A stretch of 63,999 nucleotides of DNA, counting the filler, from Circinaria calcarea (lineage: Eukaryota), in the NCBI GenBank assembly GCA_051942165.1. It is 9 parts of 9 records of this genome, joined end to end, with 100 filler letters (N's around TTAATTAATTAA, not from the genome) between each part and the next. Parts side by side here need not be neighbours in the genome. Positions count along the whole stretch, not along the records: positions 14,361 to 21,436 come from JAVECS010001414.1; 8 more parts are not named here. One strand, 5' to 3'. Positions within the stretch are counted from its first letter, which is position 1. Each line of letters starts with the position of its first letter. This document shows, piece after piece, positions 7,084 to 57,511 of this stretch. A program made the position numbers and the translations under genes. The notes below the pieces were generated by a model that did no database searches, had not been told where the DNA came from, and was given only the letters and a program-made list of their open reading frames with translations.

Positions 7084-7183
7084 NNNNNNNNNNNNNNNNN
7101 NNNNNNNNNNNNNNNNNNNNNNNNNNNTTAATTAATTAANNNNNNNNNNNNNNNNNNNNNNNNNNNNNNNNNNNNNNNNNNNN
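7084..7183. other. Artificial contig linker (N44-TTAATTAATTAA-N44)
   Basis: 100-nt spacer with stop codons in all six frames. Identical copies recur about every 7.17 kb. Confidence 0.99.
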
Positions 7184-14260: not shown

Positions 14261-14360
14261 NNNNNNNNNNNNNNNNNNNNNNNNNNNNNNNNNNNNNNNN
14301 NNNNTTAATTAATTAANNNNNNNNNNNNNNNNNNNNNNNNNNNNNNNNNNNNNNNNNNNN
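14261..14360. other. Artificial contig linker
   Basis: N44-TTAATTAATTAA-N44. Confidence 0.99.
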
Positions 14361-14894: not shown

Positions 14895-16407
14895 CTAACA
14901 CTCATCCCACCCCGACCCCTCCTTCTCCTTCCGATTTCGTACTTGTATGGTCCTCACACCGCCCTTCCAAATCTCAAATTCCACGCCCATATCTTCAGCC
15001 CCTACGCCCCTCGCCCATGGCGCGAATACTAACCTCATCCACCGTCGCCAGTGACGGGGAGCCCATTCCGCGCTTTCCCCATCTCCTCCTTCCCTTTGCT
15101 CTCCAGATGTGTGAGATTGGTAGGACAATTCCTTGACAAGAGCGATGCGGCAGGCTATTTGATTCGCCCAGACGAGGCCGAGTGCAGGAGTTTTGAGATT
15201 CTGGTTCTCGGAGGAATGATGAGGGTTCGGTGAGGAGTGAGGATGGAAATGCGGGTTGGAGGATTGGTAAGAGTAGGAAGGCGGAGGGGTATCGCCCCAG
15301 CCGGTGAAGAAACGTTGTTGATGGTCAAGGGAGAGGATGGTATCAAGATCTGGGTTCGAACGGAGGGGTGGGTTGAGGAAGGAAGAGGAAGGGTGGTTTG
15401 GGGTTCCTGGTAAGGGGGAAGAGGAGAGATGATCTGCGATACTCCGGTGGGCGGTGGAAGCGCGAGGGGAGAGAGGGGTAAACCGATCGGCCACTTGATT
15501 CGCAACTACTATTGCGCAGTTGTAATTTCGGGCTAAATCTCGGAGTAGTTGGCCAAGACGGACCAGTTCAGTAGAACGGTGCGCGAGCGCTTGTGGGCCT
15601 GTACCTGTAGATGCTGAAGTAGATGTTTCGGCGCGGTAGTTTGCGGCTATGGAATCGATGACCAAGAGGCCTATGTTATAGCGAGCTAGAGCGACGGGGA
15701 GTTGGTAGGTTAAAATATGTTCTTGAGATTCGAGGTCGGGAGTTTGGAGGGTTAGGATACGTGAAAGGGAGGGCGGAGAGGGGTGAGTGGAGAGGATAGG
15801 GTGGGTAGTTAGTATTTGAGAGAGGCGGGTAGTCGGGAGGGCATGCTCAGTGGAGATGTAGCATGTTGATTTGGAGAGGCCGTGAGGGGAAGGGAGTTGA
15901 GCGGAAAGGAGAAGGGTGAGGAGGAGTTGGGTTTTGCCGGCGCCGCTGGAAGTTTGAGAGGTAGTGTCAGTTGATGTAACCAGGAGGATTGTCTAAGAGG
16001 AAGGGAACGAACCTTTCGCCTGTAATTTCGGTGATGTAGCCTGGGGGTATACCTCCGCCCAAGACTGTGTCGAGGTCATAGTCCAAGGTACTGATGGTAG
16101 TCCATTCTGAGGACAAGTCGTTTCCGGACTTCCTCAGTGTAGTTTCTTTCTTACTACCCTGTGCAACTGGGAGGGTGTAGCTAGGATCATTGTTGACGCT
16201 CAATCCCAGCTGCTGCTGCAATGCAGCAGTGACATGGTTCGCTAGCCTCCGGACATCGAGCACAGGTAAGTGAGCGCGCTTTGCGATTTCGACAGCATCG
16301 AGTGTGAGAAGATCGGTAGTGGTGATGAGATTTTCTTCTAGAGATGGTATCAAATGAATATAAGATTTGGTAGGGAAATCTGGTAAAGTGTTAAGCAGAT
16401 CTGTCAT
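14895..16407 (-). CDS. RAD57: Rad51 paralog Rad57/XRCC3-like DNA repair protein
   Basis: Exons 16407-16013 and 15945-14895. Walker A GESGAGKT is formed across the intron. Also YISTE, Walker B LLVIDS, VVANQV and PALGLVWANQI. Confidence 0.92.
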
Positions 16408-17392
16408 GAGTGACGGAAGATGAAGAAGATCCCGGAATAGGCACAACATTTACCGAGAATTAGGGCTATCACTTGGCAACCTGGTTGGTAAGTCACCGCT
16501 ATGAGCCATTGCTGGAGTATATTGCTACTCTTTCCATCTAGAAACCTTTTTAGATTATAGCACCTACATCGACCAGGTCCGGGGTCACAGTGGCTGTCCA
16601 GAACCTTAACATGAGTTTTTTCGCCGTGGAAGCTTACGCAGATACTGAAATCTAAATTCAAGGCCATGATTGATACATTCCACGTGCCCATGTAGGCTCT
16701 CATGAAGCTTGCATAAAACTAAGCTGCTCAGGCTATTTGACACATACTCGGGCGGTACTGCACTCTAGCAATGGTGCTAATAGTGCTCCAATATAGGAAA
16801 CTTTGGCTGTCAATCTGGTGAGCAGGATTGGCTATGTAGAAGCACCCTAACTGGGTAGGACTGATATCCCATTAAAAGCTTTTGATAATATATGCTCAGA
16901 TACAGAATAGTTGGGCGGAAATAGGGAAATGAACAGTCGATTTCTAGAAAACATAGGAAACCTGGAAACACCGTCTCTATTTCCCATCTAGCCCCACTTA
17001 CCTACCTGTCCAGCACCCAACCACATAGATCTCAAACCTATTTCCATCCAGACACATACACTAGACGCCCCTAACGCATATCAAGCATTTCCAACATGAC
17101 CACGTAGTCTGGCTCTTTAACCCCTTTCCCTCTCGGCCCCCCTTGGCTTCCCTTCCCTCTTTTAGCTCCCTCTTCCTTCCCAAGTAAAATCAAATTACCC
17201 CATAATCTCCCAAAACGCAGGTAACTTCTCACCCTTCCTATAGCCCTCTCCCATTCACTCAGAAACTAGAATATAATAAACTTGAAAATACATAGCCTTG
17301 GATATTCTAGAGTAGGCACGCAATACTGTCTGGCTGGAAGAAAATTGTGGGAAGAAAATGCCATCTTACTTCCTTTTTATATTCAATAGGGA

Positions 17393-17400
17393 TATATAAA
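17393..17400 (+). promoter_or_regulatory. TATA-like element upstream of the tRNA gene
   Basis: TATATAAA lies 38-31 nt upstream of the mature tRNA 5' end, where TFIIIB binds. Confidence 0.5.
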
Positions 17401-17430
17401 AAATCGAGATAGACTCAACCAATCATAACG

Positions 17431-17578
17431 GCATTCTTGGTTTAGTGGGAAAATCCGTCGTTGCCAAAGATTGTCAATTCTAGAGATTTCGACGGGCCGT
17501 AAGCATACTATATCCCAGTTGATTCGTGGAGTTTGAAACTAATCTGTCGGTAGCCGGGTTCGATTCCCGGAGAATGCA
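17431..17578 (+). tRNA. tRNA-Gly(GCC): tRNA-Gly(GCC) with a canonical 22-nt intron (17467-17488) and a second 55-nt GT-AG insertion (17499-17553)
   Basis: Acceptor stem GCATTCT/AGAATGC (7/7). D arm GTTT-AGTGGGA-AAAT. Anticodon stem CGTCG/CGACG with GCC at 17463-17465. Variable loop GGCC. T arm CCGGG-TTCGATT-CCCGG. Discriminator A. The 71-nt spliced product has the same layout as yeast tRNA-Gly(GCC). Confidence 0.93.
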
Positions 17579-17598
17579 AGGCATGATCTTTAAATTTG

Positions 17599-17603
17599 TT
17601 TTT
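17599..17603 (+). terminator. RNA polymerase III terminator (T5) of the tRNA gene
   Basis: TTTGTTTTT about 20 nt downstream of the discriminator base. Confidence 0.65.
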
Positions 17604-17793
17604 GGTGGAGGGTATTATTGTTGATCTTTTACTTTTCTGGACTACTTGATAAAGTTTCTACAAAGACCGGGGATGTCATCATTTTCGATCATTAATCGTA
17701 AAATCTACAACTCCAGATGCCCAATGCTATTTTGTACATTTGAAGCCCAATCCGGTCAAACACCAGCTACTTTTGCTCCTTCTGCGCCAATAA

Positions 17794-19965
<2,172 letters not shown>

Positions 19966-21436: not shown

Positions 21437-21536
21437 NNNNNNNNNNNNNNNNNNNNNNNNNNNNNNNNNNNNNNNNNNNNTTAATTAATTAANNNNNNNN
21501 NNNNNNNNNNNNNNNNNNNNNNNNNNNNNNNNNNNN
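21437..21536. other. Artificial contig linker
   Basis: N44-TTAATTAATTAA-N44. Confidence 0.99.
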
Positions 21537-28609: not shown

Positions 28610-28709
28610 NNNNNNNNNNNNNNNNNNNNNNNNNNNNNNNNNNNNNNNNNNNNTTAATTAATTAANNNNNNNNNNNNNNNNNNNNNNNNNNNNNNNNNNN
28701 NNNNNNNNN
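28610..28709. other. Artificial contig linker
   Basis: N44-TTAATTAATTAA-N44. Confidence 0.99.
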
Positions 28710-35776: not shown

Positions 35777-35876
35777 NNNNNNNNNNNNNNNNNNNNNNNN
35801 NNNNNNNNNNNNNNNNNNNNTTAATTAATTAANNNNNNNNNNNNNNNNNNNNNNNNNNNNNNNNNNNNNNNNNNNN
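35777..35876. other. Artificial contig linker
   Basis: N44-TTAATTAATTAA-N44. Confidence 0.99.
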
Positions 35877-42873: not shown

Positions 42874-42941
42874 ATCTCCCTCCGTCCCCGTGCCTATTCC
42901 CCAGCGCCACCTGGGGAATAGGCACGGGGACGGAGGGAGAT
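42874..42941. repeat. Perfect 31-bp inverted repeat (6-nt loop) ending exactly at the contig end
   Basis: atctccctccgtccccgtgcctattccccag-cgccac-ctggggaataggcacggggacggagggagat. Confidence 0.95.
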
Positions 42942-43041
42942 NNNNNNNNNNNNNNNNNNNNNNNNNNNNNNNNNNNNNNNNNNNNTTAATTAATTAANNN
43001 NNNNNNNNNNNNNNNNNNNNNNNNNNNNNNNNNNNNNNNNN
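42942..43041. other. Artificial contig linker
   Basis: N44-TTAATTAATTAA-N44. Confidence 0.99.
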
Positions 43042-50102: not shown

Positions 50103-50202
50103 NNNNNNNNNNNNNNNNNNNNNNNNNNNNNNNNNNNNNNNNNNNNTTAATTAATTAANNNNNNNNNNNNNNNNNNNNNNNNNNNNNNNNNNNNNNNNNN
50201 NN
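50103..50202. other. Artificial contig linker
   Basis: N44-TTAATTAATTAA-N44. Confidence 0.99.
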
Positions 50203-57256: not shown

Positions 57257-57356
57257 NNNNNNNNNNNNNNNNNNNNNNNNNNNNNNNNNNNNNNNNNNNN
57301 TTAATTAATTAANNNNNNNNNNNNNNNNNNNNNNNNNNNNNNNNNNNNNNNNNNNN
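57257..57356. other. Artificial contig linker
   Basis: N44-TTAATTAATTAA-N44. Confidence 0.99.
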
Positions 57357-57511
57357 GCGGGAAGATATTAAGCGGGAAGATATTAAGCGGGAAGATATTA
57401 AGCGGGAAGATATTAAGCGGGAAGATATTAAGCGGGAAGATATTAAGCGGGAAGATATTAAGCGGGAAGATATTAAGCGGGAAGATATTAAGGGAGACAT
57501 TAAGCGGGAAG
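57357..57511. repeat. 15-bp minisatellite (GCGGGAAGATATTAA) x9 plus degenerate copies, cut by the contig start
   Basis: Nine identical units at 57357-57491 with no spacers. Confidence 0.95.

What the first reader, a model, noticed from the sequence alone, without database searches (positions are those of the whole stretch)
17431..17578. tRNA-Gly gene apparently interrupted by a spliceosomal (GT-AG) intron as well as a normal tRNA intron
Seen: GCATTCT TG GTTT AGTGGGA AAAT C CGTCG TTGCCA [22 nt] T CGACG GGCC [55 nt] CCGGG TTCGATT CCCGG AGAATGC A. The 55-nt insert (17499-17553) starts GTAAGC, has a CTAAT branch-site match at 17539-17543 and ends TAG. This is the same architecture as the 54-nt BUB1 intron 2 in this window (GTAAGC...GCTAAT...TAG). 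Cutting at GT and AG gives a 4-nt GGCC variable loop and a 71-nt cloverleaf with intact stems, and shifting the cut by one base changes the product. An upstream TATA and a downstream T5 terminator are present, which suggests a live gene. Established: eukaryotic nuclear tRNA introns lie at 37/38 and are cut by the Sen/TSEN endonuclease. Spliceosomal introns are known in fungal U6 snRNA (a Pol III transcript) and in ascomycete rDNA, notably in lichen fungi. I know of no established case in tRNA. Inference: this pre-tRNA may need both the tRNA endonuclease and the spliceosome, and standard tRNA finders might miss or mis-call such genes.
Basis: partly seen in the sequence, partly recalled or inferred. 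Interest (0 to 1): 0.93.

Follow-up and report, generated by a model that had tools for sequence, protein, structure and literature searches.

The report
Glycine tRNA gene with mRNA-type intron
A fungal glycine tRNA gene carries its ordinary tRNA intron plus a 55-base insert that looks exactly like a protein-gene intron, so this tRNA may need the mRNA-splicing machine to mature, though no RNA or related genome could be checked here.

Summary
Window 17431-17578 (+) is a tRNA-Gly(GCC) gene (Rfam tRNA 32.3 bits against a gathering score of 29). It has a 22-nt intron at 37/38 and a 55-nt insert (17499-17553) between the variable loop and the T stem.

- Removing both in silico gives a 71-nt Gly(GCC) cloverleaf.
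- The insert has GTAAGC, ACTAAT (branch A 11 nt from the end) and TAG on the tRNA strand. It falls inside the range of 13 local introns, five of them on the same contig.
- The chance that a fixed 55-mer shows these signals is about 2e-6.
- Of 2651 GT..AG candidates in the window, only this one yields a tRNA when removed.
- It is not a bulge-helix-bulge (BHB) intron: 1 of 4 central pairs form, against 3 of 4 for the 37/38 intron.
- Default finders miss or miscall the gene.

Splicing itself is not shown. No genome, no sequencing run and no orthologue could be obtained.

Best reading (about 0.55): a spliceosomal intron in a live Pol III tRNA gene. Main rival (0.25): an intron-bearing dead copy. 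My paper searches found no description of this.

The parts
17393..17403 (+). TATA-like element TATATAAAAAA, 28-38 nt upstream of the mature 5' end
   Evidence: Read from the sequence. Its role as a Pol III upstream element is inferred from recalled knowledge of fission-yeast tRNA genes.
17431..17466 (+). Exon 1: tRNA positions 1-37 (acceptor 5' strand, D arm with A box 17438-17448, anticodon stem 5' strand, loop TTGCCA with anticodon GCC)
17467..17488 (+). Canonical tRNA intron, 22 nt, at position 37/38
   Evidence: aragorn calls i(37,22) once the 55 nt are removed. 3 of 4 central-helix pairs form, including U32 with intron base -3.
17489..17498 (+). Exon 2, 10 nt: position 38, anticodon stem 3' strand CGACG, variable loop GGCC
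17499..17553 (+). Spliceosomal-type intron, 55 nt: 5' site GTAAGC 17499-17504, branch ACTAAT 17538-17543 (branch A 17542), 3' site TAG 17551-17553
   Evidence: Not BHB. No other copy in the window.
17554..17578 (+). Exon 3, 25 nt: T arm CCGGG-TTCGATT-CCCGG (B box GGTTCGATTCC 17557-17567), acceptor 3' strand AGAATGC, discriminator A
17599..17603 (+). T5 run, likely Pol III terminator, 21 nt after the discriminator
   Evidence: The function is inferred.

Best explanation
This is a nuclear tRNA-Gly(GCC) gene of a filamentous ascomycete (Pezizomycotina). It is split into three exons by two unrelated introns.

**Proposed pathway (inferred).**
1. RNA polymerase III, using the A and B boxes and perhaps the upstream TATA, transcribes from shortly upstream of 17431 to the T5 at 17599-17603.
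2. The spliceosome recognises the 55-nt intron (17499-17553) through GUAAGC, the branch ACUAAU (A 17542) and UAG.
3. It removes the intron as a lariat in the nucleus and joins C17498 to C17554. This rebuilds the variable loop GGCC next to the T stem CCGGG.
4. Only then can the T arm and acceptor stem sit as in a normal pre-tRNA.
5. The tRNA-splicing endonuclease and ligase remove the 22-nt intron at 37/38, and the ends are processed as usual.

**Proposed origin (inferred).** An excised mRNA intron was reverse-spliced into an abundant tRNA transcript, then reverse-transcribed and recombined into the gene. This is the route proposed for U6 snRNA introns.

**Shown here.** The sequence anatomy, the fit to local introns, the exact in-silico restoration of the tRNA, and the failure of the BHB model.

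**Inferred only.** Transcription, splicing, the order of steps and the origin.
For: **The gene is a tRNA.**
- Rfam tRNA spans the whole 148 nt at 32.3 bits (gathering score 29), despite 77 inserted bases.
- Removing 17499-17553 and 17467-17488 by coordinates gives a 71-nt Gly(GCC) cloverleaf.
- 1 of 2651 relaxed GT..AG candidates on both strands of the window gives a junction-spanning tRNA when removed, and it is this one.

**The insert fits local introns.**
- Insert: 55 nt, GTAAGC, ACTAAT, branch A 11 nt from the end, TAG, no AG between branch and 3' site.
- The 13 local introns: 45-77 nt long, branch A 7-21 nt from the end, ACTAAT in 4 of 13.
- Four of the 13 are homology-verified SelO introns of 49-51 nt on the same contig.

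**Not chance and not BHB.**
- The chance that a fixed 55-mer shows these signals is about 1.9e-6.
- The signals lie on the tRNA strand. The reverse complement starts CT and ends AC (read).
- The cut cannot slide.
- The BHB central helix forms 1 of 4 pairs at these cuts, against 3 of 4 for the 37/38 intron of the same gene.

**The gene looks intact.** B box is exact, A box and TATA are present, T5 lies downstream, and no T4 occurs inside.

[quoted passage not shown] Fungal U6 genes carry up to four such introns (PMC5855946 section 14, read).
Against: **No direct evidence of transcription or splicing.**
- No whole genome is held, so I cannot say whether intact Gly(GCC) copies exist.

**No orthologue or paralogue with the insert was found.**
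- The first metagenome scan gave 0 loci.
- The second gave 50 loci, 0 of them tRNA-Gly genes with an insert; most are bacterial tRNA-Cys genes that begin GGGCC.
- Two scans of prokaryote genome contigs gave 0. The one scan of viral contigs, for the uninterrupted form (gap 0-30), also gave 0.
- Conservation of the splice signals is therefore untested.

**Other points against.**
- The strict intron pattern alone is not rare: 11 matches on the two strands of the window, against 4.4 per strand in simulated sequence. The weight rests on both ends coinciding with the tRNA breakpoints.
- The review PMC4090602 (section 5, read) says insertions in D or T arms of eukaryotic tRNA genes mostly occur in one of many synonymous copies and are presumed pseudogenes.
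- A recently inactivated copy would look the same.
- The assembly is fragmented into contigs of about 7 kb.
Confidence: 0.55

Rival explanations
1. Dead or dispensable copy. An intron-like piece of DNA, possibly a real intron inserted by reverse splicing or by repair, landed in one of several tRNA-Gly(GCC) genes. The copy is not spliced, or not used, and has not yet decayed.
For: The review PMC4090602 section 5 states that non-canonical insertions in eukaryotic tRNA genes are mostly in one of many synonymous copies and are presumed pseudogenes. No insert-bearing relative was found in any scan. The copy number of Gly(GCC) genes is unknown because no genome is held.
Against: Every stem, the B box, the anticodon loop and the discriminator are intact. 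All three splice signals are intact and correctly spaced. No T4 terminator lies inside. None of this excludes a recent insertion.
Confidence: 0.25
2. Endonuclease (BHB-type) non-canonical tRNA intron, as in Cyanidioschyzon merolae, nucleomorphs and archaea. The tRNA-splicing endonuclease would cut both introns.
For: Such introns exist in a few eukaryotes, and eukaryotic endonuclease can cut BHB motifs (PMC4090602 section 5). One BHB-like pairing exists with cuts at 17501|17502 and 17553|17554: 4 of 4 central pairs and a 3-bp inner helix.
Against: At the cuts that restore the normal tRNA, only 1 of 4 central pairs forms. The BHB-like alternative would leave a 7-nt variable loop. 7 of the 240 cut pairs tried had 4 of 4 central pairs, about the chance level (roughly 4.7 expected, my own arithmetic from pairing odds). 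A BHB model does not explain GTAAGC, the placed ACTAAT and TAG.
Confidence: 0.04
3. Pol II host transcript. The locus is read by RNA polymerase II as part of a non-coding transcript, the intron is spliced there, and the tRNA is then released by RNase P and RNase Z.
For: The TATA element at 17393-17403 could serve either polymerase. The spliceosome usually acts on Pol II transcripts (PMC12530127, passages).
Against: No + strand gene or ORF structure surrounds the tRNA. It lies between two minus-strand genes, the Rad51 paralogue and SelO. Intact A and B boxes and a T5 just downstream fit Pol III.
Confidence: 0.06
4. Chance insertion of unrelated DNA that merely resembles an intron, or an assembly artefact.
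For: The strict pattern occurs by chance about 4.4 times per strand per 64 kb. The assembly is fragmented into contigs of about 7 kb. No reads could be laid on it.
Against: The chance that a fixed 55-mer has all signals at both ends is about 1.9e-6. The insert is unique in the window and is not a duplication of the flanks: its similarity to the left and right flanks is reached by 290 and 304 of 500 shuffles. A mis-join at a repeated tRNA gene would not create a unique, signal-bearing 55-mer between a 10-nt and a 25-nt exon.
Confidence: 0.08

Closest known systems
mRNA-type (spliceosomal) introns in fungal U6 snRNA genes (S. pombe; up to four per gene in other fungi), and in U1, U2 and U5 snRNA genes
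   Same: A short intron with canonical 5' site, branch site and 3' site, otherwise unconserved, sits inside a small structured non-coding RNA gene. For U6 the gene is Pol III-transcribed and the spliceosome removes the intron. The proposed origin is reverse splicing followed by reverse transcription (PMC5855946 section 14).
   Different: The host is a tRNA, which is not part of the spliceosome. The gene also carries a canonical endonuclease-type intron, so two machineries would be needed. The review's list of hosts (U6, U2, U5, U1, rRNA) does not include tRNA.
Spliceosomal introns in rDNA of ascomycetes (Bhattacharya et al. 2000, seen only as cited in PMC5855946)
   Same: Spliceosomal-type introns in an abundant non-Pol II RNA gene of ascomycetes.
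   Different: The host there is a Pol I rRNA gene, not a Pol III tRNA gene. I did not read the original paper.
Non-canonical (BHB) tRNA introns of archaea, Cyanidioschyzon merolae and nucleomorphs
   Same: A tRNA gene with more than one intron, one of them outside 37/38, for example in the T arm or at 45/46 (PMC4090602).
   Different: Those introns are defined by a bulge-helix-bulge fold and are cut by the tRNA endonuclease. Here the BHB test fails (1 of 4 pairs) and the insert carries GT-branch-AG signals instead.
tRNA pseudogenes with insertions in eukaryotic genomes
   Same: An insertion at a non-canonical position, possibly in one of several synonymous copies (PMC4090602 section 5).
   Different: The insert here has a full set of correctly placed splice signals on the gene's strand, and the exons are undamaged.

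Membership tests
tRNA gene (Rfam RF00005) | Covariance-model score at or above the gathering score | tested here: met
   32.3 bits against 29 over 17431-17578, model positions 1-71. Found only with lax filters; the gathering-mode run missed it.
tRNA gene (Rfam RF00005) | Complete cloverleaf with anticodon after removal of the intervening sequences | tested here: met
   aragorn calls a 71-nt tRNA-Gly(GCC) after removing 17467-17488 and 17499-17553.
Pol III type 2 gene | A box, B box, downstream T run, no internal T4 | tested here: met
   The B box GGTTCGATTCC at 17557 is the only B-box match in the window. A box TGGTTTAGTGG lies at 17438-17448 (consensus recalled). T5 lies at 17599-17603 and the longest internal T run is 3. 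Transcription itself was not tested.
Spliceosomal (U2-type GT-AG) intron | 5' splice site GTRNGY-like, as in local introns | tested here: met
   GTAAGC. The same hexamer occurs in 1 of 13 local introns (BUB1), and all 13 start GT.
Spliceosomal (U2-type GT-AG) intron | Branch site CTRAY close to the 3' end, and the first AG after it used as the 3' site (YAG) | tested here: met
   ACTAAT with branch A 11 nt from the end; the local range is 7-21 nt and ACTAAT occurs in 4 of 13. The intron ends TAG with no AG in between.
Spliceosomal (U2-type GT-AG) intron | Length within the organism's intron range, on the strand of the host gene | tested here: met
   55 nt against 45-77 nt for 13 local introns. 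The four verified SelO introns on the same contig are 49-51 nt. The signals are on the + strand only.
Spliceosomal (U2-type GT-AG) intron | Removed from RNA as a lariat, giving the exact exon junction | not testable with these tools
   No sequencing run was listed, so read laying could not be used.
Spliceosomal (U2-type GT-AG) intron | Splice signals conserved in orthologues while the interior diverges | tested here: inconclusive
   No orthologue was found: 0 loci, 0 relevant of 50 loci, 0. No genome is held.
Canonical eukaryotic tRNA intron (Sen endonuclease) | Position 37/38, one base 3' of the anticodon | tested here: not met
   The 55-nt insert lies between the variable loop and the T stem. 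The 22-nt intron does meet this feature.
BHB-type non-canonical tRNA intron | Two 3-nt bulges carrying the cuts, separated by a 4-bp helix | tested here: not met
   1 of 4 central pairs and no flanking helices at cuts 17498|17499 and 17553|17554. The control, the 37/38 intron, gives 3 of 4.
Introner-like / repeated intron family | Several near-identical copies in the genome | tested here: inconclusive
   No second copy in the 64-kb window; the best other match is 11 nt. The rest of the genome is not available.
Group I / group II intron | Match to the ribozyme families | tested here: not met
   At E up to 10 over 17300-17700, the only non-tRNA matches were two weak snoRNA hits and one weak plastid-leader hit. 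55 nt is too short for either ribozyme (established knowledge).

The most novel reading that the evidence does not exclude
In this fungus the spliceosome is a tRNA-maturation enzyme. A Pol III pre-tRNA-Gly(GCC) must be spliced twice, once by the spliceosome (lariat at A17542) and once by the tRNA endonuclease and ligase. The intron reached the tRNA gene by reverse splicing into an abundant RNA. If the genome has no intron-less Gly(GCC) gene, decoding of GGY codons would depend on the spliceosome.
Probability: 0.5. Interest if true: 0.9.

Novelty: new variant of a known kind. Interest (0 to 1): 0.7.

Why it matters
Textbook accounts keep the eukaryotic intron classes apart. [quoted passage not shown]

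A spliceosomal intron in a tRNA gene would:
- add tRNA to the short list of non-coding hosts (U6, U2, U5, U1, rRNA; PMC5855946);
- give a second Pol III substrate of the spliceosome;
- support RNA abundance as a driver of intron gain by reverse splicing.

It also has a practical consequence, because standard tRNA finders miss or miscall the gene. Default ARAGORN and the gathering-mode Rfam run found nothing, and aragorn -i called a false tRNA-Ile. tRNA counts in such fungi would therefore be too low.

Tried and rejected
**Data I could not get.**
- Whole genome: none is held.
- Sequencing runs for window 15500-19500: none was listed and no RNA holder was listed, so no reads could be laid.

**Scans for relatives.**
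- Metagenome scan 1 (V-loop anchor, gap 40-70, T arm plus acceptor): 0 loci.
- Metagenome scan 2 (anticodon loop, gap, GGGCC, gap 40-70, T arm with either stem orientation): 50 loci, all noise. Most are bacterial tRNA-Cys genes that begin GGGCC behind a TTGCCA promoter-like hexamer. The rest are a few other tRNAs and non-tRNA DNA. 0 of 50 are relevant.
- Prokaryote genome contigs, with gap 40-70 and gap 0-30: 0 and 0.
- Viral contigs: 0.
I went on with one gap.

**Models tested and rejected.**
- BHB model: rejected.
- Insert as a duplication of the tRNA or its flanks: not significant, 290 and 304 of 500 shuffles. A 14-nt inverted match to the upstream TATA region is borderline, 15 of 500 over four tests.
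- Helix between 17489-17496 and 17543-17550 that would bring the 5' site and branch together: chance level, 146 of 1000 shuffles.
- Target-site duplication: GCCG occurs at both borders (read), but removing one copy would leave a 2-nt variable loop. I treat the repeat as coincidence.
- Other copies of the insert in the window: none.
- Other split tRNA genes in the window: none.
- Other RNA families in the window at E up to 0.1: only a hairpin at a contig end.

**Notes of this scan.**
- Nothing for this genome, this sequence or its relatives. A many-word search also found nothing.
- Word searches gave notes on other genomes, which I used only as leads.

**Paper searches.**
- Searches found no description of a spliceosomal intron in a tRNA gene.
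- One search failed because a term was too short.

Full report
**1. The observation**

- acceptor GCATTCT / AGAATGC
- D arm GTTT-AGTGGGA-AAAT
- anticodon stem CGTCG / CGACG
- loop TTGCCA, then 22 nt (17467-17488), then T
- variable loop GGCC
- 55 nt (17499-17553)
- T arm CCGGG-TTCGATT-CCCGG
- discriminator A

Standard tools respond as follows:
- The Rfam tRNA model covers the whole 148 nt at 32.3 bits (gathering score 29), but only when the filters are lax.
- The gathering-mode run over the window found nothing, and so did default ARAGORN.
- With introns allowed, aragorn calls a false tRNA-Ile(AAT) with a 79-nt intron.

Removing 17499-17553 by coordinates gives tRNA-Gly(GCC) with a 22-nt intron at 37/38. 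Removing both gives a 71-nt Gly(GCC) cloverleaf. The cut cannot slide by a base without changing the product.

**2. Is it more than chance?**

The strict intron pattern (GTRAGY, a placed CTRAY, YAG) is not rare by itself. It has 11 matches on the two strands of the window, against 4.4 per strand in simulated sequence. The telling point is that both of its ends fall exactly on the two breakpoints of the tRNA.

- For a fixed 55-mer, the three signals have a joint probability of about 1.9e-6.
- I removed each of 2651 relaxed GT..AG candidates on both strands and ran aragorn. Only 17499-17553 gave a tRNA across the junction.

**3. Fit to local introns**

The organism is a member of the Pezizomycotina. 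The neighbouring SelO-like ORF has its best named matches at 64-68% identity in Leotiomycetes, lichen-forming Lecanoromycetes, Eurotiomycetes and Dothideomycetes. One unnamed match is 88% identical.

I mapped four SelO introns on the same contig by homology. They are 51, 51, 49 and 50 nt long. I added the following:
- a Rad51-paralogue intron;
- seven more ORF-joining introns.

That makes 13 in all. They are 45-77 nt long and have the branch A 7-21 nt from the 3' end. They use ACTAAT in 4 of 13 cases and end TAG or CAG.

The insert is 55 nt, with GTAAGC, ACTAAT, branch A 11 nt from the end, TAG, and no AG in between. It sits in the middle of this range. Its signals are on the tRNA's strand only.

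**4. Other mechanisms**

*BHB.* A bulge-helix-bulge intron needs a 4-bp helix between two 3-nt bulges that carry the cuts.
- At the cuts that restore the tRNA, only 1 of 4 pairs forms.
- The 37/38 intron of the same gene forms 3 of 4, including the pair between position 32 and intron base -3.
- One BHB-like alternative has cuts at 17501|17502 and 17553|17554. It would leave a 7-nt variable loop, and full helices arose in 7 of 240 cut pairs tried, about chance level.

*Other checks.*
- No group I or II match appears.
- The insert is not a copy of the flanks or of anything else in the window.
- An 8-bp helix between exon 2 and the stretch after the branch is at chance level, 146 of 1000 shuffles.

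**5. Is the gene alive?**

Features of a live gene:
- The exons are undamaged.
- The B box is exact and is the only B-box match in the window.
- An A box and an upstream TATATAAAAAA (17393-17403) are present.
- A T5 lies 21 nt downstream, and no T run above 3 lies inside.
- The gene sits between two minus-strand genes, a Rad51 paralogue and SelO, with no + strand gene around it.

All this fits a live Pol III gene, but a recently disabled copy would look the same.

I could not test expression or conservation:
- No genome is held and no sequencing run was listed.
- Two metagenome scans found no relative with an insert here: 0 loci, then 0 relevant of 50.
- Two scans of prokaryote genome contigs (one for the insert form, one for the uninterrupted form) and one scan of viral contigs (uninterrupted form) gave 0.

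**6. What is known**

- The review by Yoshihisa (PMC4090602; passages, section 5 read) says eukaryotic tRNA introns lie at 37/38. It says insertions in D or T arms are mostly in one of many synonymous copies and are presumed pseudogenes. The exceptions it names, in nucleomorphs and Cyanidioschyzon merolae, depend on BHB motifs.
- The U6 review (PMC5855946; passages, section 14 read) describes the spliceosome-removed intron of the S. pombe U6 gene. It also describes up to four canonical introns in other fungal U6 genes, the reverse-splicing origin model, and further cases in U2, U5, U1 and rRNA genes. tRNA is not in that list.
- Six searches gave no paper that describes a spliceosomal intron in a tRNA gene. 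These included exact phrases such as 'spliceosomal intron in tRNA'. They cover only the library searched.
- My statements about yeast and human tRNA-Gly(GCC) having a 4-nt variable loop are recalled, not checked. So are those about TATA use by Pol III in fission yeast, the A/B box consensus and the anticodon-intron pair.

**7. Notes of this scan**

Word searches of earlier notes returned 71 notes in at least 14 other genomes on spliceosomal-type introns in fungal tRNA genes.
- They include a Gly(GCC) gene (e1-7559189) and a Gly(CCC) gene (e1-7587406).
- Several follow-ups state that public RNA data show exact excision (e1-7587722, e1-7503533, e1-7559352, e1-7558907).
- These are unchecked AI notes on other genomes. 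I could test none of them here, and I do not count them as evidence for this locus.
Better-supported members of that series are the place to settle the mechanism.

**8. Verdict**

- Best reading (0.55): a live Pol III tRNA-Gly(GCC) gene that needs the spliceosome and then the tRNA endonuclease.
- Main rival (0.25): an intron-bearing copy that is dead or dispensable.
- Minor rivals: a Pol II host transcript (0.06), chance or artefact (0.08), and BHB (0.04).

The kind, a spliceosomal intron in a structured non-coding RNA gene, is known from U6. The host, a tRNA, and the pairing with a canonical tRNA intron are not described in what I could search.

**9. A caution on the window**

The window is nine contigs of about 7.1 kb joined by linkers of 44 N, TTAATTAATTAA and 44 N. 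The tRNA contig is 14361-21436. Only the SelO and Rad51-paralogue introns are certainly from the same molecule as the tRNA.

Noticed in passing
window 7084-7183, 14261-14360, 21437-21536, 28610-28709, 35777-35876, 42942-43041, 50103-50202, 57257-57356: Eight identical linkers (44 N, TTAATTAATTAA, 44 N) cut the window into nine pieces of about 7.1 kb whose lengths fall slowly. The window is therefore a chain of size-sorted contigs from a fragmented assembly, not one contiguous locus. Genes on different pieces, such as BUB1 and the tRNA, are not shown to be neighbours.
   Followed up: partly
window 42874-42941: A perfect 31-bp hairpin directly abuts a linker, that is, a contig end. Rfam mir-3130 matches both strands at 43 bits, far below its gathering score of 95. 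It is probably an assembly-end palindrome.
   Followed up: partly
window 19406-19456 (-): The second SelO intron, placed by protein homology, starts GTACAC, an unusual 5' splice site for this set.
   Followed up: no
window 17385-17398 and 17508-17521: A 14-nt stretch of the insert (TATATCCCAGTTGA) matches the reverse complement of the upstream TATA region in 12 of 14 bases. 15 of 500 shuffles reach this score, in one of four comparisons. It is borderline and unexplained.
   Followed up: partly
L001-L050 (metagenome loci): Most of the 50 loci are bacterial tRNA-Cys(GCA) genes that begin GGGCC or GGCC, with a TTGCCA hexamer 26-35 nt upstream. This looks like a conserved -35-type promoter box in front of these genes.
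   Followed up: no
window 57357-57430: A tandem repeat of GCGGGAAGATATTAA units starts right after a linker, that is, at a contig end.
   Followed up: no
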